A stretch of 61,462 nucleotides of DNA, filler included, from Sphacelaria rigidula (lineage: Eukaryota), in assembly GCA_964200075.2 (NCBI GenBank). It is 10 parts of 10 records of this genome, joined end to end, with 100 filler letters (N's around TTAATTAATTAA, not from the genome) between each part and the next. Parts side by side here need not be neighbours in the genome. Positions count along the whole stretch, not along the records: positions 6,158 to 12,214 come from CAXNAA020022529.1; 9 more parts are not named here. One strand, 5' to 3'. Shown here piece after piece: positions 6,058 to 59,511 of the stretch. Each line of letters begins with the position of its first letter. Positions within the stretch are counted from its first letter, which is position 1. Under the pieces are notes generated by a model. It worked only from the letters and a program-made list of their open reading frames with translations. It made no database searches and had not been told where the DNA came from. Made by a program: the position numbers and the translations under genes.

Positions 6058-6157
6058 NNNNNNNNNNNNNNNNNNNNNNNNNNNNNNNNNNNNNNNNNNN
6101 NTTAATTAATTAANNNNNNNNNNNNNNNNNNNNNNNNNNNNNNNNNNNNNNNNNNNN
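6058..6157. other. artificial contig spacer N44-TTAATTAATTAA-N44 (first of nine)
   Basis: Identical 100-bp spacers start at 6058, 12215, 18372, 24529, 30686, 36842, 42998, 49153 and 55308; the 12-mer places stops in all six frames. Confidence 0.99.
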
Positions 6158-7263
6158 TGTGGGGGAAGCACTGTTTTAGGCTTGAGCCTCATCTCGAAGT
6201 TAAACCTCAATTCGCACAATTTGTTGTTAGTAGCTGGTGTACAGCACTTTGATCTCACTCCATTTCTGTGCTTACCGGAACACCGCATGCAGCACTACAA
6301 CTGTTCAGGTATTCTCCAGCGCACATCATCACACCATGTTCGTCGTAGAGTGTTCAACTGCACAAAAGCACAGCGACAACTACAGCATAGAAATGATGGG
6401 TGTGGGAAGCGTCTTGTTAATTCGGCTATATATTCTGAAAAAGTTATTGCTGTGTTGTAGTATTACAGCAGCAGCAGCTGGACACTAATAATTTTGCGAC
6501 AGCAGAAACTGATGCATAGCATATTGTATACAGTCCGTGTTCAGGTTCTAAAAAACACTCGCAGAACTGCTGTGTTGTCTTGTGTTCAGTGTAGTACTAT
6601 GTACTCCATGTACCACTGCAGAATTGTGTTGTGTTCAGTGTAGTGCCCTGTACTCCATATGATGGCATCACGTTTTGAGCAGTTTTTGATAAGTTCTGCT
6701 TGCTTTTCTGTCACAGAAATCCAATGCTGAAACTGGAAAGGCCTGAAACAACAACCAATTTGAATATTGGAACATTAATGTGAGACACTACGTGCGCTGT
6801 GGCTTGGGATACACATGCAGGTGTAGGATAAACGAGGATGATAAGTCGAAAGCCTCTTTCCGTCTCCGTGCCTTCATCGTGGAGCTCGAGACATGCACCT
6901 CGAGGATAGCACTGCATCATCCAGAGAAAGCTGCACATATTTGCTGCATGAGTTTTACGTGAACAGCTGTGTCACGATTCATTTCGTGGCCAACTTCCAC
7001 ACTGCATCTCCCTTGAGGCAGCTCTCGGCACATGACTGCAAGGCACATGGCGACCACACCTGTCAAAACCAAGGGTCCACGACACCCTGGAACATAGCAG
7101 TGAGATGTAAGGACCCCACAACCTTACGAGCTCTCTCGCATCGAGAGAGCAAACCATTTCATGCCAGCCACTTTCCGTTCAAGGGGACGGGTCGTGCAAG
7201 CTGGCGTCCAGCATACTCCCCGCGTACTCTGAACAATATCAGTACAAGGAACAGCACCATCCA

Positions 7264-9873
7264 TCATCTGTCGGACGCCCCTCCTAGCTCCAACTTCACG
7301 CTTGAGCCCTCCAACGCCTCTGCCGATTCCACGCCAACAAACCCGCCGAGAGACCCACATACAAATGCCGGCGAACCATAGAGCCGTCCCGCACTCACAC
7401 CACAGCTGCTGCTGCTGGAGCTACTTTCACCACCTGCGTTGCTCCAACCCCTCAAAGGGCCAGCATGCTTGCTATACTGTCCCATTCCAGCGCCACCGTG
7501 TGCAGGAGAAGGAGCTGCCACCTCGACCTTCATTCCTGCCCCTACCCTCAGCACGGAAGACACCTCACGAGTAGCCCCCGAGGGTATCTGGCCCGGAAGC
7601 AACAGTGGTGTTACACCACTACGTATGGTAACAGGGTACACGCCACGTCGAGGATCAACAACGTCGCTTCTGCCAGAACTCAGGCATGGTGCGCGCTTGC
7701 GTTTTGTTCCTCGCACGCCAGCGAAGCTTCCTCCACCACCGTCGGTTGTGCTACGGGTGTAGGTGGCCTCCTCAGTGCTGAGGCCTTCCATGTCGCACAC
7801 TGTCGCTGCGTTATGCGCAATGGGATGCTGTCGGCATGACATTGGCTCATAGAGGTTATCGTTCTTGACAATATCCATTCTCAAGCGTCCCTCGTTGCTA
7901 GACTTGTGGCTCATCACATCAAGCATTCCCGCCCTGGCATGCTGAGAGCAGAACTCCACCTCCTTGCTTCCCGCCACACGACACGACGACCTCTTCAAGC
8001 ACTCCTCGTCGCCGCATTGTTCTTCGACCACGTCCACCATTCCCGCCCTGGTGCGCGGAGAGCAGACCTTGACCTTCTTGCTTCCCGCTAAACCATCCGA
8101 CGGATTCTGGGAGCAGTCGTCATCGCCGCATTTATTTATGACCACATCCACAATTCCCGCCCTTGCACGCTGACAGCAGAACTCCGCCGTGTGGACCCCG
8201 GCTACCCGAGGCGATGGCTGCTTGAGACAGCCCTTGTCGCCGCACCTCTCCTTCATCAGATTCACCATTCCTTCCCTGGCATTCTGAGAGCAGAAGTCCG
8301 CCTCATAGCCCGGAACATCATACGATGGGCATTTCGAGCAGCCCTCGTCGCTACACTCTTTTTTCATCATGTCCACCGTCCCCGCCTTGGCATGCTGATG
8401 GCAGAACTCCGCTTTTTCGCCTCCCACTACACCATACGACGGCTTCTTCGAAAAGATCTCGTGGCCGCATTCTTTGTTCACCACATCCACCATCCCCGCC
8501 TTGGCATGCCTGGAGCGGAGCTTGGCCTTGACGCCGGGTACACCGTACGATGGCCATTTCGAGCAGCTCCCTTGGCTGCGCTTCTTGGTCACCACATTCA
8601 CCATTCCTGCCTTAGCGTGCTTGGAGCAAAACTCCGCCTTTTTGCTTCCCGCTGCACCATACGACGGCTGCTTCGAGCAGCCCTCGTCGCCGCACATCTG
8701 GTGCACTACATCCACCATCCCCGCTTTGGCATGCCTGGAGCAGAGCTTGGCTCTGAAGCCGGGTACACCGTACGATGGCCATTTCGGGCAGCCCTCTTGG
8801 CCGCACTTCTTGGTCACCACATTCACCATTCCTGCCTTCGCATGCTTTGAGCAGAACTCCGCCTTCTTGCTTCCCGCTACACCATACGACCGCCTTTTGA
8901 AGCAGCCCTCGTCGCCGCACGCCCTGCTCATCATATTCACCATCCCCGCTGTGGCATGCTCCAAGCAAAACTCCGTTTTCTTGCTTCCTGCCACACCACA
9001 CGACGCCGCCTTGGAGCAGCCATCATCGCCGCATCTCTTTGTCACCACATCCACCATTACCGCCCTCGCATGCTTCGAGCAGAACTCCGCCTTCTTGCTT
9101 CCCGCTACACCATACGACGGCCTCTTGAAGCAGCCCTCGTCGCCGCACGTCCTCCTCACCACATTCACCATTTCCGCGGTGGCATGCTTGGAGCAGAACT
9201 CGGCCTTCTTGCTTCCGGCTACACCATACGACGGCTTCTTGAAGCAGCCCTCGTCGCCGCACGTCCTCTTCACCACATCCACCATTCCCACCTTGGCATG
9301 CTGGGAGCAGAACTCCGCCTTCTTGCTTCCCGCTACACCATACGACGGCCCTTTCAAGCAGCCCTCGTCGCCGCACGTCCTCCTCACCACATCGACCATT
9401 CCCGGCCTGGCATGCCTTGAGCAGAACTCCGCCTTCTTACTTCCCGCTACACCATACGACGACCTTCTGGAGCAGCCCTCGTCGCCGCACGTCCTGTTCA
9501 CCACATCCACCATTCCCGGCCTGGAATGCTTTGAGCAGAACTCCACCTTCTTGCTCCCCGCTACACCATACAACGGCGCCTTTGAGCAGCCCTCGTCGCC
9601 GCATTTCCTCCTCACCACATTCACCATTCCCGCCCTGACATGCTTCAAGCAGAATTCCGCCTTCTTGCTCCCCGCTACACCGTACGACGGCTTCTTGGAG
9701 CAGCCCTCGTCGCCGCACGTCCTGTTCACCACATTCATCATTCCCGCCCTGGCATGCTTCGAGCAAAACTCCGCCGTGTAGCCCGGTACACCATACGATG
9801 GCCACTTCGAGCAGCCCTCGTTTATGCACTCTCTTTTTGATACGGTGGTCATCAGCTCGGTCGCGTGGTGTTT
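7264..9873 (-). CDS. EsV-1-7 cysteine-rich repeat protein (probable large terminal exon; first in-frame ATG at 9852)
   Basis: 884-codon stop-free frame with 17 repeats of consensus CGDEGCxKxPSYGVAGSKKAEFCSKHAxAGMVDVVxxx, matching the EsV-1-7 motif. A pyrimidine-rich CAG acceptor ends at 9874 with GCTGAC upstream; the C-terminal ~200 aa are low complexity and contain KRKR. Confidence 0.92.
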   Translation of the reverse strand, partial: KHHATELMTTVSKRECINEGCSKWPSYGVPGYTAEFCSKHARAGMMNVVNRTCGDEGCSKKPSYGVAGSKKAEFCLKHVRAGMVNVVRRKCGDEGCSKAPLYGVAGSKKVEFCSKHSRPGMVDVVNRTCGDEGCSRRSSYGVAGSKKAEFCSRHARPGMVDVVRRTCGDEGCLKGPSYGVAGSKKAEFCSQHAKVGMVDVVKRTCGDEGCFKKPSYGVAGSKKAEFCSKHATAEMVNVVRRTCGDEGCFKRPSYGVAGSKKAEFCSKHARAVMVDVVTKRCGDDGCSKAASCGVAGSKKTEFCLEHATAGMVNMMSRACGDEGCFKRRSYGVAGSKKAEFCSKHAKAGMVNVVTKKCGQEGCPKWPSYGVPGFRAKLCSRHAKAGMVDVVHQMCGDEGCSKQPSYGAAGSKKAEFCSKHAKAGMVNVVTKKRSQGSCSKWPSYGVPGVKAKLRSRHAKAGMVDVVNKECGHEIFSKKPSYGVVGGEKAEFCHQHAKAGTVDMMKKECSDEGCSKCPSYDVPGYEADFCSQNAREGMVNLMKERCGDKGCLKQPSPRVAGVHTAEFCCQRARAGIVDVVINKCGDDDCSQNPSDGLAGSKKVKVCSPRTRAGMVDVVEEQCGDEECLKRSSCRVAGSKEVEFCSQHARAGMLDVMSHKSSNEGRLRMDIVKNDNLYEPMSCRQHPIAHNAATVCDMEGLSTEEATYTRSTTDGGGGSFAGVRGTKRKRAPCLSSGRSDVVDPRRGVYPVTIRSGVTPLLLPGQIPSGATREVSSVLRVGAGMKVEVAAPSPAHGGAGMGQYSKHAGPLRGWSNAGGESSSSSSSCGVSAGRLYGSPAFVCGSLGGFVGVESAEALEGSSVKLELGGASDR
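7903..9828 (-). repeat. coding tandem array of 17 units of 111/114 bp
   Basis: Recurrent GAGCAGAACTCCGCCTTCTTGCTTCCCGCTACACCATACGAC and CAGCCCTCGTCGCCGCAC at 111-114 bp period. Confidence 0.95.
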
Positions 9874-11450
9874 CTGATGAGGAGTAACCGTTCGCGGTAG
9901 GGACAATCGGCAAAACACAGGAGGTTTCTCGTGTCAGCTTCAGGAGAAAGCGAGTTGATAAAAAACACTATCGTCGCACATTAATGGGAAGAACAGGAGC
10001 TACCTGAGCCTACTGAAATGACACTTTACATAAACGGATCGCCACGACTACAACTTCAGTGCCCAATGTAATTCAAGCGCATCGGACTTCCTCACCAATA
10101 CGGCTGTATGAATCTGAAGTACATATAGCATTGAAAGGATACAGGAGGTGAATGAAAGCAGACAAGCTTGAACGTAAAATACCAAGCCGTGATTCACCGG
10201 ACATGATACATGCAGTATTACACAATTCAAGGCTTGTAGAACACCTGCCAGCATTTTGGGAAGTTGCCCTACACCGGCAGAATACCTGACAACGTTGGAG
10301 GTGATCATATACACCAACAAAGTTAGGGGAAATCGTCCTGAACTCGAAGATGCCTGACCATCTCCCGAGCTACTGGCCTGGTTCGATCCTGTTCTATTTC
10401 ACGGCTTCAAGATATAAATAGAAGAGGGATGTCTTTCGTTCTCAACAGCGGTACAAGCGACCGTCGAAAGCAAGTTATATCAATTTCGGTACCGACATTG
10501 GTATGTGCACACGCGCAAAAAAGTATACATATCTGCCGAATCTCATTACACGCGCACATGTGCTCCTATGCTTGGATATCTTCATCTCTCTTGTCATATC
10601 GGGTACCGTGGAAACCAACAGTTATGTATTGTTCTAGTTTTCACGTCAATCACACGTGATTCCATACGTCGGGTTATCTGATATTTGCTTTAGTCACTTC
10701 CACGTCATAATTTTCGGCTCGTATCACATCTGTATGGTGTGCATTGTAGTACACCGCGTGTTGTCGCCAGGGTCAGAGTGTCAATGTCAGGGAAGGGCCG
10801 GAAGTTGAGTAGAGCGAGAGACTGTCGGGAGAAACAACAAGACTTGCAGTATAATACATTGCACATCTGTTGGGTGAGTATGTTACGTCTGTACATGATT
10901 GGTGCAAACATTCTAGATGGCGCCGACATGACGATAATCGTCACCGTAAAGGCCCTTCCCTTTACAACCCTTGTGGAAACCGGCAGACGCCTGACAAGGG
11001 TGAAATATCTCAAACGCACCAATATCTGACTCAACGTTCGTTAATTGTCTGTCAGACTACCAGAATATCACCTTCGTTTGACGTACGTTTTAGCCTGATC
11101 GGGTGTCATCCAGCCTGTGTCGAACACACATCCTACGGTAAACATGTACTCCCTCTGATCGCGAATATCAGGGATGTAGGGACAACGCGCGGTCTAACTC
11201 GGGCCCATGGTAGGGTTTTCGCGAACCGTTGTTTTTGCCGTTTCTCCACGTTTATTCAGAACAACTAGGACAGGTTTTCTCAATTCTTCTCCCGAAAAGG
11301 GTTCCCCTACCCCAGCAGAAGCAGCTCGATATCACCACTCCTTCTCATCGTGTGATGAGGCATGCCTGCTGCTGGGAGTGAAGGTTAATCGCAACAAATT
11401 TCAACAACTTTGAGAAAGACGAAGTGATTCGGTACCTCCTTGCTGGCAGC

Positions 11451-12214: not shown

Positions 12215-12314
12215 NNNNNNNNNNNNNNNNNNNNNNNNNNNNNNNNNNNNNNNNNNNNTTAATTAATTAANNNNNNNNNNNNNNNNNNNNNNNNNNNNNN
12301 NNNNNNNNNNNNNN

Positions 12315-12779: not shown

Positions 12780-13207
12780 CTATCAACCAGGCAACGACAA
12801 AAAGGCGGGAACGAAAAAAACGTCACATGAGAGGCGTTTCGTTGAATGCTGTTCGACAGCTGTTGTCTGTTCTTCCACCCACGAGACATCAACAGCAGCA
12901 AAACATATCACAAGGCGGCATCCCACAAAACAAACAACACAAACAAAACCATAAAATCTTGACATCAAGTATACAACCACTGCTCGTACCTCGCCATTAA
13001 GCTGTGACCCTGAAAAACAAGCAAAAACGCGAAGAACTGTACAACAGTGGTCGTGTGCACCCTACAAGTTTTTTGTCCCGGTCAGGCGTGAAAACACAAA
13101 CATGTCACTTGACAACGCTCATCTGCGGATCTGTGTGAGCACCGAACATGCGAATGCACCATGCTGATCTGCCCCCCCCCCAAACAAGCAGGACAAGACT
13201 AACGCAC

Positions 13208-13472
13208 CGCCGCAGCGAGACGCCCTGCTTCGTTCGCCGAGAAAATCACCACCCCCTTCATCGAAACTGTGCCGCCTTGGCCGCTTGCCAGCAGGACGAC
13301 CGCCTGCTTCACCGCAGGCGCTACCTGCACCCTCACATCCCACGTTGCGGTCGGGGTTTGCTGGGGCCACCCAGTTTCCTTCAGTAGAGGCATTCGTATC
13401 TCCCGCCACATCACTTCCGTCGTTTGCTACCGTTAGCCGCCGCTTCTTATCGACAGAAGTGGAAGCGGGGGC

Positions 13473-13507
<35 letters not shown>

Positions 13508-14550
13508 GATCACCGCCAGGCCCTCCTGCTGGAGACGTCTGGTACTTGGTAGAGGCAGACGACTTACCAGCGACGTTTCCTCTCATGCGGACGTTGTCGT
13601 TGTTGGGAAGCAGGTCATGGTCATCGTCGCCGCCGTCGTCATTCGAGGAGGGACTCTCAGCCCCGTCAGTACGTCGCCCAGCTCCATCGCCCTCACCATC
13701 GTCGACTTTGTTCTCGGCAGGCGAGCGCGCCGCTCCTGTTTCTGCCGCCCCGGCGGAAGCCCTCGATGGTTTCCCATCGGCTGCCTCCAAGGATTGGGCA
13801 GACGATTTCTTCGCAGCCTTCTTCGTGACATCAGTCGGTCTGCTGATCACTTCGACAGGCGGAGAGTCTTCGCCGTCCGACCGCATCATTATCGCAATTT
13901 CATTTTCGAGCGCCTTTGACGTCTCACTTTCGATCATCGCGAGACACTCCCTCTCGTAATCCTCGCGAGTGCGCGGCACCAGCAAATGCACAATCTCGTC
14001 TATACTCATCGTCGCTCCGGGGAAGACTGGATTGCCTCCTCCTACAACGGCCCCGCCGGCCTCGCCGGCGCCACCGGGGCCATCGTCGCCATCGTCATCC
14101 GGTGTGCCGTCAGAATCCGGTAGACATTCGCCGTGATCCTTGCGTTTACTCCTCGGCAGATCTTCATCTTTCCCACGCTTTGGCTCAGCCGGATCGATCA
14201 CGTCGCTTCGTCTCTTGCCCTTGGTTTCCAAAGGACGTTCTTTGGACTGCGATAAATCAACTGCCGTCGTGCTCGAGACCGGCGGGGTGGTTTTCTCTTC
14301 TTCCTTGCAGTCGCGGCCCTCGCCGTCTGTCCCAACCCCGGCCTCGGATCCATTTTCCTTATGCCCAGTTTTAGCTGAGGGTGTCCCTCCTTGCTTCGCG
14401 TCGGCCTTGGTCGAGGGCGTTGCTTGCTCCTTCGAGTCTGCCTTTCCCCGAGGCCTCGCCTCACTCGACGCCGGCAACGAGGGCGGTGATGCAGCGGAGT
14501 TGGCATGCGTCTCCGGGGCCGAGATGCTGCCGTCCTTCACCGGGCGCGGG
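13208..14550 (-). CDS. exon 3: large acidic/low-complexity exon with poly-Ala
   Basis: Lies within a 490-codon ORF with GC-rich coding-like composition; acceptor CCTTTTAG at 14551, donor GCG|GTGCGT at 13207. Confidence 0.8.
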
Positions 14551-16220
14551 CTAAAAGGCAAGCGGAAAGAGAGCGCACGCCCATTTATCAACAGAGTGTC
14601 CGTGAATCACGCAACGAATCGCAACAACACGCCCCGACGAACGAGGACGATTGATAATACAGAGCCCCGCCCGGGCAAAAAGTGGCCGCAGTACATACAT
14701 AAATGAACAGAATCAGAAAAATGGCGAACGGGGGAACAGGGAGAGCAGGCGCGGTCCAGGAGTTTGTTGTGGTTTCTCCCGTTACGCTGTTGTGACAACC
14801 TTTACGGGGTACAACGCGAACAAGGGACAGGCAGGCGCGCGACCCAGTCATACCATCTTTCAGGTCACGAAGGGTGAACACAACACAGCAGTGTCCTACA
14901 CGCGGGGGTCGGCGAGCGTCCTCGAGCCCCTAACAAACACAAAACAAGATGGCATGTGATGGCGCTTCCAAAGCGCCCAGCTACGAGGCGAAATAGCGGA
15001 CATCCAAAGCGACCATTTCATTTAGGGGAAACCGAGGGGACTGACCAACTACAGGCCGTGATTCTCGCCGTGATTCTTCCCTCCCCCCGGAGGCTTTTGG
15101 CGATGAGGGAAACCCCAAAATGGATGGCCGAAACCGCGAATTATTTGCAATATTGACACATTCAAAGGCTGTGCTCTCTTTAGACAGGGTATATGCCCTG
15201 AAGTGGGAGAATTTCGGTTGGTATACTTGACCATATCGGAACGTGTACCGAGCATTCCGGTATGCTGCGATAGGTTATCGAGCTCTGATTCCAACACTCT
15301 GGTTTGATTCGGAAGGGCATTTACCGTAAAAATATATCTTTTACACCTCTGTAAATCCCCCGATTTCATTGGATATGTCCTTTAGAAAACAAGCTAGTAA
15401 CCTTCTTCGGAGCCAAAGAGACGAAATCATGCTTGGCAAAGCCGCAGTAGGACCGGCTCTTTGCATTTACGGAAAACCAACAGTGCGTGGCAAAGAGCCG
15501 GTTCTGCTGACTGGTTCCATCTACAGGGTTCACCAGTCAATGCCATGTCAGGGATACGAAACGCTAGCAGCGTCGTCAGAATAAATGGATATTTGAGTTG
15601 ACGCCTTTCGTCTCGCATTCATTTTTGGACAGTTTCAGGTACCCCCGTAGACTTTCTGGACAGTTTCAGGTACTTCGAGAGCTTCAGAGAATGTTGTGAG
15701 GGGAATTTGACAATTTCAGGTATATCTGGTGCCTTTTCGGCAATTATCACACCCTGGACAATAGAATACACTGTCAAAAGGTGTGATGCGTACAGTATCG
15801 ACTATTGCGCACATTGCAACAGACAATAGATTCCATACTGTACGCAGTACATTTTTTGCAACATAATCTTTTGTCCAGGGTGTGGTAATTATCAGGAATT
15901 TTGCGTCCTCCGTCAATCACATGGTAAAATCTGGGGCATTCAATATTGTTCCGGGGCTGCACCTGAAAGTGTTCCAGAAATGCTCAGGTATACTTCAGCG
16001 TGACCGTTTACAGTTCATGCTCATATACTACGGTGAGTGCTCATGTCCAACTCGCTCTCCTATCCTGTGTCGACCATGTGCTCGACACTACAGCGTCAGC
16101 ACACACATCAAGTAATCGGACGATGAGCGTAGGCTGTCGAGCATTGAAAGTGTCATAACTCTCATGTGTTTCGAGCAGCTGCCGCAATCCTGCACGCGAG
16201 GTTTGGCACGAGAAACCGAC

Positions 16221-18371: not shown

Positions 18372-18471
18372 NNNNNNNNNNNNNNNNNNNNNNNNNNNNN
18401 NNNNNNNNNNNNNNNTTAATTAATTAANNNNNNNNNNNNNNNNNNNNNNNNNNNNNNNNNNNNNNNNNNNN

Positions 18472-24456: not shown

Positions 24457-27199
24457 ACAGTTGGTAACAGCCAATCATCTATGTTGAGGATGGTGCTTTT
24501 GATTGAGGATGAGAACCCGGAGGATTAANNNNNNNNNNNNNNNNNNNNNNNNNNNNNNNNNNNNNNNNNNNNTTAATTAATTAANNNNNNNNNNNNNNNN
24601 NNNNNNNNNNNNNNNNNNNNNNNNNNNNCCGTGTCCTCTGATCGACTTCATCAGTCGTGTCCAGCTGTCCCTCTTTATGGATCATGTGTCATGGAACATA
24701 GTGTGCCACCGTGCATTTGCTGTCTGGTGCTTTGTACGCTGCTGTTGTACTGCACTACATATTTGTATTACGGTTGCGCTTGTACATTTATTGACTGTTA
24801 CCTGCCCGATGATACGTCATCGACCCCCGACTCGGCGGTTTTCAGCGAACTACGCGGTAGTGTAATAAGTATCGTCAGCTGCGCTGGTATTGCCTCTGAC
24901 ACACGGCATCCGGTAGTTTTTTTTTTTTCAGCCTCAACGTGTTCTCAAAATAGAACTGAGCGGTTTGACGTTGCTGTTCGCTGCATCCCACACGTCTATT
25001 CCTTCGTGGCATGCAGGTTTGTTAATGCGCTGTTGCGCTGGTGACAGGCACTGTATGTCTGTTGATCGTGACAACCTTCGTTTTCTTGTCTCTCGCTGTT
25101 ACAATTTATTTCAAAACACACACACACACATACGGTTTGTTGTGTGCCTTCGACATATATATATATATATATATTCCCTTTCATCTGCACCTAATTTTAA
25201 AGGTGATAGACCGCTACATGTGCGGAGTGCGCGGACCTACATGTCGATCGAAAACTGTCGACAGTACCCTGCCACTATATTTCTTTTATTTTTGTTCGCT
25301 CCGCCTCAATCCTCAACAACTGTGCTGTCTCCCACGACGAAGCGTTCACTTTTCAACCCCCGCATCTTTACGTTCACGATCTGGCGCAATAGCGCACGTG
25401 TACAAGCCATTTCTGATATCAACCGCCCTTCGACTTCATCGGAGCACGATGTCACGAAGGACGGTGCATTCCCTACAGACAGTGGTGACCGACCGTACAA
25501 ATCAACCACGCGTAATGAGACGAGTGATGAAAAAAACGAACCAGAACGTTGTGATGATGATGAGAGCGTCGTTTCAGGACGTATTTATAGGGACGTGAGT
25601 GTGGATAAATACTAGTACTCCTAGCCCCCCCACAAACACATCTACTACCCCGAACACAGCCCGCCAGAATGGGACCCACGACTCTACCGATGCCAAACGT
25701 ACCACCTGACGGTGTTTGAGAAACGCACAACACCCCGCGTTTCCAAATCACCGACGGGGTACCTCTTCGTGTGTGACCGCTTGTAACACTTCGCCGTCAC
25801 CCTCTTTACATTTTGATAACACTTCTACTTCAAACCCCATTGTCGGCCACAGGTCCACAATCGGGCCCCAACAACCTTCAACAACAAACCACGGCAATAT
25901 ATTTTCTTTCACCCCGCCAGCGTACCATCACCACTTAACAAAATCCTTGTCGGCCAGCGTGGGTTCTCGCTTGTGGTGTGGGTACGCTAGCGTTGACCGT
26001 TCTGTCATGACGGGTTCCATGACAGCACAGTCCCGTGCAACATTGCATGACTCCTAAATGCGCAATGATCAACCCCAGTGTTTTCATACTGGATCTGATC
26101 ACCCAGTTGTATTTCCGAGGGGTAGTAATCAATGCCAGTTGGATCCGATCGCCCTGCGGGATCGGCAGTCGTGTAGCGTAGCGCCCACCACCTTAGAAGC
26201 AGGTACATCTTCTGATACGGTAGCTGTTACCCCTACGACCGTTCATCGTAGGATGCAGTGTTTACAGAGACTCCCCAGCCCCGAGAAGGACTCAGGAGTC
26301 CAGTCGACCCCGGTAACACATGCGTGCGAAATTCCGCGTGTGCCCGGTCCCCTTTTGTTTGGTGAGCGTAATTCTTCGTGCACTACGCGCGCCACTGCCG
26401 AACCCTTGCTTTCCGTAGCTCAGCGGGTATGAAAGGAACCCCAAGCGACTGTGCCGACCAAGCGCCACACGTGTAGCCACGAACGGACTGACCTTGCCAA
26501 CTTCCCAAAAGCCCCTGGAACAACGGGCTCTAGAGTGCGCTATACGCGACACCAGGAGAGGGCTCTTCCGGATAAAACTGTAAATTAACCTGTAGTTGCC
26601 GCTGCATCCGCCCACCAAGAAGGTGCCCGGGTGCGGGGCACAGCGGATGAAGGCCTTGCCGTAGAACAGGTCGGTGTTTCCCAGATCTCGAACTGATCAG
26701 CACCGCTTCCTGCCAATCCCTCGGAATCTATGGTGAAGAATAAAGTAGCGTTGACATATGTTGGGACAGTAAACCCGCTACGCCCTGCATGTATGTCTCA
26801 TGGTGCTGGACAAACCCCGGCTGTGCCGTCACAATCGCAGTCCGATCAGGATTGTTTCTCCCCTGTTTCTCATAGCTCCAAACAATTACTGCAAACATCC
26901 ACATCCACTCCCTTTCCCAGGCGTCGTCCATCCCTGATTGTGTACGAAATCCAACTTTCGTCTACTGCACCACACGCCCTACAAACCCCCCCGTGCCACG
27001 ACGGCCCTCCGAAAAACACATTCGTTCCGGAGGATCAATCTCGAGTCTATTTTAGTACCATTGCCCAACAACACAAGAGCGATGTGGCTGCAGATCAATT
27101 GTCGGAATTTGGACCGGACTTGGTCAGTGGAACTGCACTCATGGATGACGCCTCCTTCACAACCCGAATAGGTATACATAGTGGAGTGCATGCAACATG

Positions 27200-27500
27200 C
27201 CCTTTGATGGCCGTTGCCCTGCCCGACACTGGCTCGCCACAAACTTTCATAACAGCCAGCTGCTGGCAACACATGATGAACGCTGGAGCAGCAGACAAAT
27301 ATTGCCTTTCTACTGTTCCGCCTCGTGTTTTTGGCGGGTTTGGTGCCTCCACTCCCCCTACGGTTGATCAATCAGTCAGCCTCAGTGTGCAATTCTTCGA
27401 TGACACGGGCCCCACTGCACAATTAGCTGTGTGGGCATTCATTGTGCCCGATGGTTCCATGTCGGTTGATGTTCTCTTGGGACGTGATAGCTGGTTACGT
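27200..27500 (+). pseudogene. gypsy aspartic protease
   Basis: ALPDTGSPQTFIT active-site motif and downstream VDVLLGRDSW. Confidence 0.85.
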
Positions 27501-28199
27501 TTTTCCACACATACATACACGACGAACTCACCTGTCTTGAACCGACCACTGACAGGCAGATTAAAATTGGGACATCACGACGCTGATCCAGGGGCTCAGG
27601 CCTATGTCGATGACCCAACACAAACAGGTTATGCTTTTCGACTGTATTATATTGGAGACCACGTCGTCTCTCTGTTCCGTGAAACCTCAACACATCCATG
27701 TGAATCTTATGAGACGGAACGGATCCCCCACCCTCACTGGACAGTACTTGGTCGACTTAACCAATCCCAACCAAACCCCAGACAGTATTCCCCCCTTTGA
27801 TCAGACCGATGTATTTGTCCATGAGGGTGAACAATCCATTCTCCTCACGTCCTCTGCATATCTCGATGTCCTTCCTGGTCAGTTGTTGGGTTTTGCTCAA
27901 GCGCCCCTCCTACGAGCAGCCTTGTTGAATGGTGCCACCGCAAACATCATCAGACAGCTCAGAGACAAAGGGTTCCACTTCGTTCGACAAGACTGACCCC
28001 ATGGTTGTAGCCGAATCGACTGATACGCCTGGCACAAAACCTCCGACTGTCTCACTAGATACATTCTCGCCGGAGCAACGTGTTAGTTTTCAACAATTAT
28101 GGAATGAAATTCCCCCCATTTGAGACACATTGCGTTTGATTTATCTGGTGAGGGTTGGACACCCACGATGATTGATCGGTTGCGCTCCATCTTGATACG

Positions 28200-28837
28200 A
28201 TACTCTGAACGGCTTTCCAAATCGTCAACAGATTTAGGCCGCTGCAACACTATACCGTTCAAGATCAACATTCCTGATGGTACGACACCTATCGTCATGC
28301 GTCCGTCCCGAACAAACGCTCTTCTAGCGGGTAAAATTCAAGTAATTCTCGACGAGTACTTGTCCGCCGGGTTAATACGGCACTCAACGTCTCCGTGGGC
28401 CTCGCCTTTGGTAGTCGTCCGGAAGAAAAATGATAAGATCCGACTGACCGTCAATTATCAACGATTGAACGCAGTCACAAAAATCGCACGTCTACCTCTT
28501 CCCCAGATAGATGAAATCATCGACTGCCTCGGCGGGGGCAAAGTTTTTTTCGAACTTCGACATGCAGTCCGGTTACCACCAACTGGTGATGAATCCGCAC
28601 TCTATCGAGCTGACGGCGTTTTGCACCCCGTCAGGACTATTAGAGTGGCTGGTCACTCCATAAGATGCCGCCGGCGCCCCAGGAGCGTTTCAACGTGTGA
28701 TGTTTTGCGTCATTGCTGGACGGTCCAAATGCTGCATGTATCTCGACGATGCGGTGGTTCACGGCAGTACACCTGCTGAACACGTCGAACATTTGGCGTC
28801 CTTCTTTGCTCGTTTTGAACAAGACAATTTGAAGCTC
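28200..28837 (+). pseudogene. gypsy reverse transcriptase, frameshifted and 3'-deleted
   Basis: SPWASPLVVVRKK..IRLTVNYQRLN, LPQIDE, then after a frameshift FDMQSGYHQ, TAFCTP and YLDD at 28739-28750. Confidence 0.92.
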
Positions 28838-29399
28838 GACACCTTCCCAACCACCTCTGCCCACCATAGTCGAGACCTCGACTGTGCCTCCTCCACCCCG
28901 TGATGGTACCACCTCCGGTACCACACCATCCGACACCCTCCACAACGTAGGAATAGAGGTGAACGTTCCGTTTGAGAATATACTGACCACCTCCTCTGAC
29001 CTTGATCCAAATGACGCGTCGTGTCCATCCCACAGCGATTCGATCCCCTGCGTTTTGGACAACCCCTCCGACAGTGTATTCAAGGAATTGACCCCTTTTC
29101 TCACGCCGATTGGGCCCGGGAACAGCAAGCTGAACCTGCTTGTAGAGCAGCTATACATCCTCCTTTTCAGAAACTGAGTTCCGTTTACCAGTAGGGCCCC
29201 ACCGAACCCCCACACAGGATGAACTTACTGAATTATCGCGTAAAGGCATGTTTTTTACGGATGATGATGGCGTTGTTCTCTTAATTCACCGGCCCACCAC
29301 GAAACCTCCTGGAGGGAAACCTACAAGTAGTCACGTCCGTTTGTTGGGTGATGCCCCCGTACGTATTTATGTTCCGATGCTTCTGCGTTCATGAGCTCT

Positions 29400-30453
29400 C
29401 CATGAATGCCACTCACAAGCATCCACACATCTGGGCGTCGCTAGGACCTCCCAGATGCTTCAGCGCTTTTTTTGGTGGATTTGTATGGACCAATGTGTGC
29501 GTTGGTGGGTTCGGCGGTGTCTTCTTTGCCAAGCACGCAAAACTTCGCGTCAAACACTTAAATGGCCGGTAATCTCTATGCCCCTCCCCAATGGGCCTAA
29601 TGAAATAGTTTCATGGGATTACTTTGACCCCCTGCCCCTCACTGATAGTGGTAACAAGTACATTTTGTTGTTTACGGATCGGTTCAGTCGACATGCTGTG
29701 ATGACTGCTGTTGCTGAGGCCAACTATAGTGCAGAAGGGACTGCCAACGTCCTTGTGTACACATACATCCCTCAGTGGGGTGTCCCCAAACATTTGTTAT
29801 CCGATAACGGCCCACATTTTGCCGGAATACTTTCTGCCGCGATCAGTAATCTCCTGGGTGCCCATCATTTTTTTACTAGTTCATACCATCCATCCACTAA
29901 CGGTGGGACCGGACGAGTTAATCACACGATGGCGCAAATGCTTGCCACAGTGACCAATGAGCGACAAACAGACTGGGGCCTGCACTTACGCCTTGTCCAA
30001 ATGAACTACAACAACTCCGTCAATGCCGCCACAGGCTTGGCTCCCAATGAAGTTCATATTGGTCATATGCCTCGGTTGCCATTGATAGTGTTCGACAGGA
30101 AACCCCCTGGTGGTCATCAGAGTTTGGATCGGGATTTTGTGGAGTATCATATATCTGTTAGTAATCGTCTTCGTCTTGCATATGAGGTGGTACGGGACCA
30201 GAACTTGATCAACGCAACAAAGGTAGCTAAGGCAAACAGCGTGTTGGATGATGCAGTGAACAACCGTCTGGTGTGGAAAGTAGGTGAATGGGCATCGGTG
30301 TATAACGATGTGAGAACTGTAAACCAAGGTGCAAGCTCTGCTAAGTCGTCGTCGGATGAGGTGTTGAAGTCGAAGCTTTGCTTGAATTGGACTGGTCCTT
30401 GGAAGGTTCGACAGTTGGGCCCTGTGATACCGCACCTGACGATAGGCCAGTAG
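29400..30453 (+). pseudogene. gypsy integrase
   Basis: HHCC finger (CHSQASTHLG..CLLCQARK), core SWDY..DRFSR..SDNGPHF..YHPSTNG, GPY/F-like WTGPWKV. Confidence 0.92.
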
Positions 30454-58546: not shown

Positions 58547-59511
58547 TTGCGTGCAGCTATGGCAGCGCGCAGGAAAGTGGGTGATGGCGATGCATGCGAA
58601 GAGGTGAAGTTTAAGTTTACTGAGCTTATGCCTGCAGGATCGCTGAAAGCCCCAGAGTACGGACGGCATTTTGACGAAAATGCGTCCCGACATTTTCATC
58701 AGAAATACGTCGAATATGAAGAGGCGGTCAAAATGAACAACGAAGGACGTAGCATGCAGGCCGTCTTATTGATTGTTACTGAACTGATGCCGAAGCACAT
58801 TCGTGCGTGTCTGTCACGCATGATTTTTGACGGATCCGTGCTTGCCGAAGATGATCTCAAGGAGGCACTAGGCCGACATGCGAAATGTTGGCAGGATGAA
58901 GAGATTTATCCTTCAGTTGCTGCCGCTGGTGTGCGGAAAGCGATGGCGGCCCGCAACGAGCAGACTGCAATGGGAAGAGTAGAAGGGCAGTGGGGTGCCC
59001 TGGAGGAACTTTTTGCGAAGAATGCTAGAGCCGAGCGTGCGTTCCGCGATGATACAGTTTTAAAACCAGGACCCGCTCAAATCATCACGCGTGAAACGTT
59101 GAATGGACTAACCCCCCCCCCCCCGAATTCAAAACCAAAGTCTTCAACATGTTGAACATGAAGGGGGGGTGGAAGGGGGACCCTGGGCTTGTGTATACCA
59201 CGACTCGGGAAGCAGCGGAGGCATGGAAGACGGTGGAAGCGGCGGATAAGCAGCGCCGTCAGCAGCCGCAGCTGAAACAAAAGGGCGGCAGCGGGACCTC
59301 CGGGTCCAAGCGCGAACCGAATGGTGGAAAAACGGCGACCGCTGGCAGTGAGACTGCCAGTTCCGGGAAATGTCGGAAACCGGGCCCAAGCTATGCAGGA
59401 TGTTTCTCATGTGGAGACAAGGGCCACTTCGTGAAGGATTGTAAGCAGCAAAGCCAAGCTGTTGCTCCACAACATACTGCTGGTGGGCAGTCCAAGGCCG
59501 GCGACACGTAG
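58547..59511 (+). mobile_element. LTR-retrotransposon gag, frameshifted at a C13 run
   Basis: Two ORFs join at 59112-59124 (NGLTPP/EFKTKVFNML); CCHC knuckle CFSCGDKGHFVKDC at 59401-59442. Confidence 0.8.

What the first reader, a model, noticed from the sequence alone, without database searches (positions are those of the whole stretch)
7264..9873. Intact 17-repeat EsV-1-7 protein with hypervariable positions: candidate modular recognition protein
Seen: 17 tandem 37/38-aa units with C-x4-C-x15/16-C-x2-H spacing in one stop-free frame, in a window where every TE frame is broken or truncated. The scaffold is nearly invariant, but the three residues after the second Cys change unit by unit (SKW, SKK, SKA, SRR, LKG, FKK, FKR, SKA, FKR, PKW, SKQ), as do the basic linkers (NRT, RRK, RRT, KRT, TKR, TKK). 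Known: the EsV-1-7 motif is named after an Ectocarpus siliculosus virus-1 protein, is expanded in brown algae and occurs in the developmental regulator IMMEDIATE UPRIGHT; to my knowledge its ligand is not established. Inference: a zinc-binding array whose variable positions could encode nucleic-acid specificity as in TALE or C2H2 arrays, possibly in virus/TE surveillance or development.
Basis: partly seen in the sequence, partly recalled or inferred. Interest (0 to 1): 0.85.

Follow-up and report, generated by a model that had tools for sequence, protein, structure and literature searches.

The report
Brown-alga EsV-1-7 zinc-repeat gene
This is a real, open gene for a 17-unit member of the already known and hugely expanded brown-algal EsV-1-7 cysteine-rich repeat family, with five decayed units and no measurable sign that its variable residues form a selected recognition code.

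Summary
The repeat array is real. It lies on the minus strand: a 114-nt period with 16.9 copies and 17 Pfam EsV_1_7_cys stretches, E 2.7e-218. The open frame is 862 codons, from ATG 9852 to stop 7264.

"Intact" is overstated. Only 12 of 17 units keep C-C-C-H; five consecutive units (R12-R16) lost ligands.

The listed variable triplets and linkers are correct. However, those columns evolve at about the neutral rate (omega 0.91, against 0.45 for the scaffold), and no column shows a significant nonsynonymous excess.

The 215-residue tail is coding. 24 of 199 homologues share it, 23 of them named Sphacelaria rigidula. It carries a KRKR motif and is predicted to be disordered.

Four units fold confidently (pLDDT 92) and have no solved structural relative.

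Indirect support for DNA binding:
- The array has net charge +41.
- A published transposase carries an EsV-1-7 domain.
- 126 giant-virus or metagenome proteins share a nuclease-like C-terminal domain, and all 120 listed carry EsV-1-7 arrays.

Verdict: a new member of a known family. The recognition-code idea is untested.

The parts
7264..9852 (-). Proposed single-exon coding sequence: ATG at 9852-9850, TGA stop at 7266-7264, 862 codons, about 91 kDa, pI 9.1
   Evidence: There is an in-frame stop just upstream (stop-to-stop frame 7264..9933). The closest relative P0081 starts with an almost identical N-terminus.
8590..9837 (-). Units R1-R11, all with the C,C,C,H ligand set. Scaffold near-invariant. 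Net charge +1 to +5 per unit.
   Evidence: Pairwise pN/pS is 0.35 on scaffold columns and 1.0 on columns 1, 2, 3, 10 and 12.
8026..8589 (-). Units R12-R16, each lacking one or two zinc ligands (RCRH, CFCH, CCCN, CCCR, CCCR). More diverged.
   Evidence: (scaffold pN/pS 0.62 in R12-R17).
7912..8025 (-). Unit R17, with the ligand set intact, directly before the tail
7267..7911 (-). C-terminal tail of 215 residues. G/S-rich and predicted disordered. Shared with a small lineage-specific set of paralogues.
   Evidence: 24 of 199 homologues match at 34-74% identity, several to the same last residue; 35 representatives at E<=0.001 among 1.84 billion; pLDDT 31-43. No Pfam or NCBIfam match.
7693..7704 (-). 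KRKR, a nuclear-localisation-like basic motif in the tail. It is conserved in the three closest paralogues shown.
   Evidence: Reading it as an NLS is inference.

Best explanation
This is a host, non-viral, intronless gene of a brown alga whose closest named relatives are Sphacelaria rigidula proteins. [quoted passage not shown]

Shown:
- Family membership.
- The array grew by tandem duplication of 114-nt units. The 37-residue units R1, R10, R12 and R14 form one clade, R10 and R12 are 90% identical, and tail-sharing paralogues carry 1-8 units.
- Purifying selection holds the scaffold of R1-R11.
- A distal block of five units has lost zinc ligands and evolves under relaxed constraint.

Inferred:
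- Each intact unit is a small zinc-stabilised module, built as knuckle, short hairpin, then C-x2-H at a helical turn.
- The basic array binds nucleic acid, most likely DNA, in the nucleus. The KRKR tail motif provides import and the disordered tail recruits partners.
- The residues that differ between units (columns 1-3, 10, 12, 28, 31) are weakly constrained positions near the zinc site. They may modulate binding, but they are not shown to be selected specificity determinants.
For: - Family: PF19114 at 705.9 bits with 17 stretches. EsV-1-7 of EsV-1 itself is a structural match to the 4-unit model, at E 3.3e-17 and 47% identity.
- Coding: scaffold omega is 0.35-0.45 between units. The tail is conserved in 24 of 199 homologues and ends at the same residue in the closest ones. 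The N-terminus matches P0081.
- Sequence check: contigs from two studies reproduce unique parts of the frame with 0-1 differences (table 8).
- Fold: the 4-unit model has pLDDT 92.2 and the same secondary-structure pattern in every unit.
- Ligand columns are 94-100% conserved in 442-485 homologous units. C,C,C,H is present in 909 of 977.
- Host context: there is no giant-virus marker among 109 other frames, only retroelement pieces.
- Nucleic-acid binding, indirect: the array has net charge +41 and pI 9.1.
- A Tc1/mariner transposase of Ectocarpus has an N-terminal EsV-1-7 domain (PMC12477816, passage read).
- A conserved C-terminal domain with invariant PD...EVDE.QH residues is found in 126 proteins, and all 120 listed carry PF19114.
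- That C-terminal domain gives sub-threshold Pfam hits to DUF2726 (E 9.1e-5) and DUF559.
- 4 of the 28 significant BFVD matches are named 'Endonuclease' and 1 'DNA primase' by their sources.
Against: - No direct evidence of zinc binding, nucleic-acid binding or nuclear location.
- Foldseek found no solved structure at E<=0.001, and the best VIA match has Z 2.3. No sequence match in the PDB. The fold therefore gives no functional analogy.
- The nuclease identity of the fused viral domain is weak. No Pfam hit at E<=0.01 in 26 such proteins, nothing in the PDB by profile, and nothing in PHROGs or NCBIfam.
- A 2026 preprint states that none of the Ectocarpus EsV-1-7 genes has another Pfam domain. 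The algal paralogues may therefore do something different from the viral fusions.
- Five dead units and 74% tail identity to the nearest relative fit a young, fast-evolving, possibly dispensable gene.
- Transcription is not shown.
Confidence: 0.55

Rival explanations
1. The array is a programmable recognition scaffold like TALE, PPR or C2H2 arrays. Each unit reads one element of a nucleic-acid target through the residues after the second Cys and in the linker, and these positions are diversified by selection.
For: - R1-R11 have a near-identical scaffold, with variation concentrated in columns 1-3, 10 and 12.
- Those columns take more nonsynonymous change than the rest (47 N: 11 S against 109 N: 66 S, Fisher p 0.0097).
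- Column 12 has 14 nonsynonymous and 0 synonymous changes.
- The same columns are among the most variable in 120 closely related units from 65 proteins.
- The knuckle columns 5-8, variable family-wide, are held constant here.
- The 4-unit model superposes on viral arrays at TM up to 0.71, which suggests a regular inter-unit geometry.
Against: - Omega at these columns is 0.91, about neutral.
- No column has a significant nonsynonymous excess. The smallest binomial p is 0.146, and column 12 gives 0.21.
- Against the synonymous rate, column 12 gives p 0.03-0.11 before correction for 38 columns.
- The five columns together give p 0.11-0.23.
- The columns were picked after looking at the data.
- Column 11 is conserved.
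- Column 12 is R, K or H in 65% of related units. That pattern looks more like a generic basic contact than a code.
- Five units have no complete zinc site.
- No target, no periodic target repeat and no structure with a ligand is known.
Confidence: 0.12
2. The array is a zinc-stabilised protein-protein interaction scaffold, as LIM, B-box or RING-like modules often are. It acts as an adaptor in development or gamete and spore biology, without binding nucleic acid.
For: - The weak structural neighbours are mostly protein- or histone-binding zinc modules: PZP/PHD, B-box, and RING of IDOL at Z 2.3.
- The long disordered tail suits partner recruitment.
- Passages read report that Ectocarpus members are stage-specific and peripheral in co-expression networks.
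Against: - None of those structural matches is significant.
- The strong positive charge, and the recurrent fusion of such arrays to a transposase and to a nuclease-like domain, point to nucleic acid.
Confidence: 0.2
3. It is a young duplicate on its way to becoming a pseudogene. The frame is still open only because the array expanded recently, and the protein has no maintained function.
For: - 5 of 17 units lack ligands, against 7% in homologues.
- Scaffold pN/pS rises to 0.62 in R12-R17.
- The protein is absent from the searched collection. The nearest relative is 65% identical overall and 74% in the tail.
- The gene sits in a gene-poor region that carries retroelement pieces.
Against: - An 862-codon frame has stayed open although synonymous divergence between units is 0.26-0.34.
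- Scaffold omega is 0.35 in R1-R11. Purifying selection therefore acted after the duplications.
- The tail, stop position and N-terminus are conserved with paralogues.
- Degenerate distal units also occur in paralogues with otherwise intact arrays.
Confidence: 0.12

Closest known systems
EsV-1-7 cysteine-rich repeat family (Pfam PF19114; EsV-1 gene 7; Ectocarpus IMMEDIATE UPRIGHT; 2018 proteins listed for brown algae and sister taxa in bioRxiv 10.1101/2024.02.19.579948, passages read)
   Same: The unit motif, ligand spacing, tandem arrangement and brown-alga host are the same. Pfam score is 705.9 bits. The 4-unit model matches EsV-1-7 itself in BFVD at E 3.3e-17.
   Different: - It has 17 units. 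The most in any of the 197 homologues examined is 12. Only lengths 30-1547 and the best-scoring hits were seen.
- There is no N-terminal domain, so it is not an IMM orthologue by architecture (describes IMM's unique amino-terminal domain plus five repeats).
- It carries a lineage-specific tail.
P0081, unnamed protein product of Sphacelaria rigidula (484 aa), and 23 further tail-sharing homologues
   Same: The N-terminus is almost identical, the unit scaffold is the same, the tail is 74% identical over all 215 residues, and the last residues are the same.
   Different: - P0081 has 7 units, all with complete ligands, against 17 here.
- The order of variable triplets is not collinear after unit 1.
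- Most other models start at an internal Met of a unit, so they are probably cut short at the 5' end.
Giant-virus and metagenome proteins with an EsV-1-7 array plus a conserved C-terminal nuclease-like domain (for example L001:2207-4375, P0253 of Fadolivirus, P0275 of Faustovirus), and the TcMar-2_Ec32 transposase with an N-terminal EsV-1-7 domain (PMC12477816)
   Same: They share the same repeat module in long arrays of 4-12 units. They suggest what the array does: it delivers a DNA-acting enzyme to DNA.
   Different: The window's protein has no catalytic domain. Its tail is unrelated, with no match in the tail searches to these proteins.
TALE, PPR and C2H2 zinc-finger arrays (works-like comparison only)
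   Same: Tandem near-identical modules with a few variable positions per module.
   Different: There is no sequence or fold relation. No demonstrated code, no demonstrated ligand, and no significant positive selection at the variable positions.

Membership tests
EsV-1-7 cysteine-rich repeat family (PF19114) | Match to the Pfam model above its gathering score | tested here: met
   705.9 bits against cutoff 25, E 2.7e-218, 17 stretches
EsV-1-7 cysteine-rich repeat family (PF19114) | C-x4-C-x15/16-C-x2-H ligand set in the units | tested here: met
   12 of 17 units have it. R12-R16 lack one or two ligands. In homologues 909 of 977 units have C,C,C,H.
EsV-1-7 cysteine-rich repeat family (PF19114) | Units arranged head to tail, about 35-38 residues each | tested here: met
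   Period 114 nt, 16.9 copies. Unit table.
EsV-1-7 cysteine-rich repeat family (PF19114) | Zinc coordination by the four ligands | not testable with these tools
   Only predicted. The 4-unit AF2 model has pLDDT 92.2, but no coordinates or metal are returned.
IMMEDIATE UPRIGHT orthologue | Amino-terminal domain unique to IMM, followed by five EsV-1-7 repeats (as described in bioRxiv 10.1101/2024.02.19.579948, passage read) | tested here: not met
   The first Cys of unit 1 is residue 9 after the start Met, so there is no N-terminal domain. There are 17 units and a C-terminal tail. The IMM sequence itself was not compared.
Sphacelaria-lineage tail subfamily (unnamed) | Shared C-terminal region of about 215 residues after the last unit | tested here: met
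   24 of 199 homologues match, at 34-74% identity and E down to 1e-96. 35 representatives in 1.84 billion.
Modular code arrays (TALE, C2H2-like; works-like) | Near-identical modules with variation confined to a few positions | tested here: met
   In R1-R11 the entropy peaks at columns 1, 3 and 12, then 10, 28 and 21.
   Omega is 0.91 at columns 1, 2, 3, 10 and 12. No column is significant. There are only 17 units of 38 codons and no orthologous DNA, so power is low.
Modular code arrays (TALE, C2H2-like; works-like) | Variable side chains on one exposed face; one module reads one target element | not testable with these tools
   Structure prediction returns no coordinates, and no nucleic-acid complex prediction is on offer.

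The most novel reading that the evidence does not exclude
EsV-1-7 arrays are a so far uncharacterised class of modular DNA-recognition zinc modules. Giant viruses and a mariner transposon use them to aim nucleases and transposases. Brown algae have domesticated them by the hundreds, and this 17-unit protein would be a long-target reader whose columns 10/12 and linker residues set the specificity of each unit.
Probability: 0.1. Interest if true: 0.8.

Novelty: new member of a known kind. Interest (0 to 1): 0.3.

Why it matters
The EsV-1-7 family is one of the largest gene-family expansions in brown algae, with up to 335 genes per species in the passages read. It includes a developmental regulator, yet its biochemical activity is unknown.

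This locus adds little by itself. It is one more, unusually long, partly decayed member. It is still a convenient test object:
- It has eleven near-identical intact units that differ at a handful of positions.
- It has natural 'dead' units to serve as controls.

The side result may be more useful. The same arrays are recurrently fused to a nuclease-like domain in giant viruses and, as published, to a transposase. That gives a concrete, testable hypothesis that the module binds DNA.

Tried and rejected
- Whole genome: none is held.
- Earlier notes by place: none.
- Macaisne et al. 2017 (Development 144:409) could not be read by DOI or PubMed id. What I say about IMM comes from passages of other papers.
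- Supplement tables of the bioRxiv papers (Table S17, the EsV-1-7 lists) are closed. I could not see whether this gene or its unit number is already listed.
- Expression: no RNA holder is listed.
- Three runs of one study are only guessed to be RNA. In them no contig lies on 9850-10385, and cover below 7170 is thin. This is not evidence for or against transcription.
- Joints connect different units, with skips of 118, 348, 595, 707, 1393 and others. They occur in the DNA-like run too. I read them as products of assembling repeats and paralogues, not as introns.
- The full-length AF2 model (mean pLDDT 51) is uninformative for units 7-16. The homologues aligned only to the first six units and the last one.
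- Foldseek pdb, VIA wide, phmmer against the PDB and the protein atlas gave nothing usable.
- The Pfam hits Phe_ZIP and Fer4_23 on the array have 0 accepted stretches. I treat them as repeat artefacts.
- The long plus-strand frames inside the array (for example 8399-9781) are by-products of the repeat.
- Only one EsV-1-7 gene lies in the window, so there is no tandem gene cluster here.
- Viral-contig scans:
  - The unit alignment A3 gave 1 locus.
  - P0067 gave none.
- Identity of the fused viral C-terminal domain: no Pfam hit at E<=0.01 in 26 proteins, none in PHROGs or NCBIfam, none in the PDB by sequence or profile.
- A provirus origin for the locus is rejected. No giant-virus marker appears in 109 frames.
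Full report
**Observation**

- The window holds one very long open frame on the minus strand, 7264..9918 under table 11 and 7264..9933 from stop to stop.
- The next-longest frame in the window outside the array has 495 codons.
- The first ATG lies at 9852-9850, with an in-frame stop just upstream. That gives 862 codons, about 91 kDa and pI 9.1.
- Tandem Repeats Finder reports one array, 7911-9821, period 114 nt, 16.9 copies, 75% matches.
- Pfam reports EsV_1_7_cys (PF19114) at 705.9 bits, E 2.7e-218, with 17 stretches.
- I cut the protein into 17 units of 37 or 38 residues.

**What is overstated**

- Only 12 of 17 units keep the four ligands. R12 to R16 read RCRH, CFCH, CCCN, CCCR and CCCR.
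- In 977 homologous units with all four columns aligned, 909 are C,C,C,H. So 5 of 17 broken is an excess (Fisher p 0.0057), and the five are consecutive (p 0.002).
- These distal units also carry less positive charge.
- Their scaffold pN/pS is higher, 0.62 in R12-R17 against 0.35 in R1-R11.
- Column 11, the middle of the 'variable triplet', is K in 15 of 17 units.

**Is the variation more than neutral?**

- Nei-Gojobori comparison between units gives overall pN/pS 0.55.
  - For R1-R11, the scaffold columns give 0.35 and columns 1, 2, 3, 10 and 12 give 1.0.
  - For R2-R9, those five columns give 1.4. That rests on five codons chosen after looking.
- I also counted changes by parsimony on a maximum-likelihood tree of the 17 units.
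  - In total there are 77 synonymous and 156 nonsynonymous changes.
  - The five columns take 11 S and 47 N (omega 0.91). The rest take 66 S and 109 N (omega 0.45). The difference gives Fisher p 0.0097.
  - No column has a significant nonsynonymous excess. The smallest p is 0.146. Column 12, with 14 N and 0 S, gives p 0.21.
- Measured against the array-wide synonymous rate:
  - Column 12 gives p 0.03-0.11 before correction for 38 columns.
  - The five columns together give p 0.11-0.23.
- The pattern is a selected scaffold with a few positions drifting at about the neutral rate. Weak diversifying selection cannot be excluded with 17 short units.
- Two further points soften this reading.
  - The knuckle columns 5-8 are variable across the family (entropy 2.0-3.6 bits in 442-485 units) but are held constant in this array.
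  - Columns 12, 3, 28, 31, 32 and 10 are also among the most variable in 120 closely related units from 65 proteins. There column 12 is R, K or H in 65%.

**Gene structure and relatives**

- No protein identical to this one is in the collection.
- The best matches of similar length are 43-47% identical.
- Among shorter proteins the best is P0081 of Sphacelaria rigidula, at 65%.
- At first the 215 residues after the last unit looked like read-through, since they had no hit in the first 79 homologues. With the shorter proteins added, 24 of 199 homologues share them at 34-74% identity. In the closest ones the match runs over the full length to the same final residues.
- 23 of the 24 are named S. 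rigidula. One has no name.
- A full scan of 1.84 billion representatives finds only 35 matches at E<=0.001. Two of these look like low-complexity matches.
- The tail is therefore a real, narrow, lineage-specific coding region. It contains KRKR (7693-7704). It has no Pfam or NCBIfam match. Its pLDDT is 31-43 although paralogues were aligned to it, which suggests disorder.
- P0081 begins almost like this protein and has 7 units.
- Most other paralogue models begin at the internal Met of a unit and come from short contigs. Their unit counts of 1-8 are probably underestimates.
- Among 197 homologues the largest unit count was 12.
- The unit tree groups the four 37-residue units (R1, R10, R12, R14). 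R10 and R12 are 90% identical in DNA. This fits growth by unequal tandem duplication.

**Sequence support from public runs**

- Contigs of a large run and of three small runs from a different study reproduce unique parts of the frame with 0-1 differences. Examples are 7238-7417, 7397-7702, 7932-8066, 8041-8313 and 8865-9097 (table 8).
- No contig spans the array, so the number 17 rests on the assembly.
- Many hundreds of contigs fit the units at 95% or more (table 1). This fits many close paralogous units in this organism.
- Nothing here shows transcription (see Tried and rejected).

**Context**

- A unit profile finds no second EsV-1-7 gene in the window.
- Pfam on 109 other frames of 100 or more codons finds only an integrase piece (29395-30450) and a gag zinc knuckle (59095-59508). 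It finds no giant-virus marker.
- This is a host gene in a repeat-rich stretch, not a provirus gene.

**Fold**

- Units R2-R5, folded with 60 aligned rows, give pLDDT 92.2 and pTM 0.57.
- Each unit shows the same elements: a strand at columns 15-17, a bridge at column 25, a short helical turn at columns 27-29 that carries the C-x2-H, and a strand at columns 34-36.
- I read this as a knuckle-hairpin-helix zinc module, treble-clef-like. That name is my inference, not a tool result.
- No solved structure matches:
  - Foldseek's best hit has E 0.52.
  - The best VIA wide match has Z 2.3.
  - phmmer finds nothing.
- In the viral predicted-structure library 28 matches pass E<=0.001. They include EsV-1-7 of EsV-1 (E 3.3e-17, 47% identity). 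By their sources' names they also include 4 'Endonuclease' and 1 'DNA primase'.

**What the module may do**

- One homologue, P0067, has 7 units followed by a region with sub-threshold Pfam matches to DUF2726 (E 9.1e-5, 22.6 bits against cutoff 24.7) and DUF559 (E 0.025).
- A giant-virus contig (L001) encodes 12 units followed by the same region, at 41% identity over 99 residues, E 9e-15.
- Searching with that C-terminal region alone finds 126 proteins of 397-1266 residues.
  - All 120 listed carry PF19114.
  - Named ones are from Fadolivirus and Faustovirus.
  - One is called 'Holliday junction resolvase' by its source.
- In 26 aligned members the residues of a PD...E-V-D-E-x-Q-H pattern are invariant. 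From my own knowledge, this resembles PD-(D/E)XK nucleases of the Vsr/DUF559 type.
- No library confirms the nuclease identity.
- A published passage reports a Tc1/mariner transposase of Ectocarpus with an N-terminal EsV-1-7 domain (PMC12477816).
- An earlier, unchecked note of this scan reports a single unit fused to a giant-virus RPB2.
- Together with the +41 charge of the array, these fusions make DNA or nucleic-acid binding the most likely activity of the module. This is inference by association, not a demonstration.

**Comparison with what is known**

- The family is well described. The passages read say:
  - it is named after EsV-1 gene 7;
  - it is present in IMM;
  - 2018 proteins are known in brown algae and sister taxa, with up to 335 per species;
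  - the genes are often in tandem;
  - Ectocarpus members have no other Pfam domain, high expression specificity, and preference for unicellular stages.
- I found no paper in the held library that links EsV-1-7 to endonucleases beyond the transposon paper (search: 1 paper).
- This locus is a new, unusually long and partly decayed member of that known family.
- The recognition-code reading remains possible but unsupported.

Noticed in passing
L001:2207-4375 (giant-virus contig) and proteins P0225-P0343: A widespread architecture in giant viruses and metagenomes: an EsV-1-7 array of 4-12 units followed by a conserved C-terminal domain with invariant PD...EVDE.QH residues. 126 proteins were found with the C-terminal part alone, and all 120 listed carry PF19114. 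Pfam, PHROGs, NCBIfam and the PDB do not recognise the domain. A few sources call such proteins endonuclease or Holliday junction resolvase.
   Followed up: partly
window 9463/9730 (minus-strand gene): Contigs of two runs guessed to be RNA join 9463 to 9730. They skip 266 bases whose ends read CT..AC on the plus strand, that is GT..AG for the minus-strand gene. 266 is not a multiple of 3 or of 114, and only 29 letters lie on the shorter side. It may be an artefact of repeats or paralogues, or a rare splice.
   Followed up: no
window 13122-14606 (-): A 495-codon open frame encoding a low-complexity protein rich in acidic and basic residues, G, A and S. It has no Pfam match. Long frames are also open on the opposite strand. 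It is possibly an exon of a disordered protein, or a composition effect.
   Followed up: partly
window 29395-30450 (+) and 59095-59508 (+): Retroelement pieces: Integrase_H2C2 plus rve (E 1.6e-12 and 8.1e-10) and a gag-type zf-CCHC knuckle (E 4.1e-5). The neighbouring long frames 26697-27797 and 28108-28776 have no Pfam match.
   Followed up: partly
window 6058-6157, 12215-12314, 18372-18471 and so on, about every 6156 bases: Pairs of 44-base N runs recur at a regular spacing (812 N in all). The spacing suggests masking or a scaffolding artefact rather than biology.
   Followed up: no
Sphacelaria rigidula paralogues P0082-P0113: Most annotated models of the tail-sharing paralogues begin with the internal Met-Val-Asn/Asp-Val-Val of a repeat unit and sit on contigs of 5-17 kb. 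Their 5' ends and unit counts are probably truncated by assembly or annotation.
   Followed up: no
window 8399-9781 (+), 8092-8850 (+), 8851-9420 (+): Long open frames antisense to the array (up to 460 codons). They are repeats of the same 38-codon pattern read on the other strand. They are by-products of the array, not genes.
   Followed up: yes
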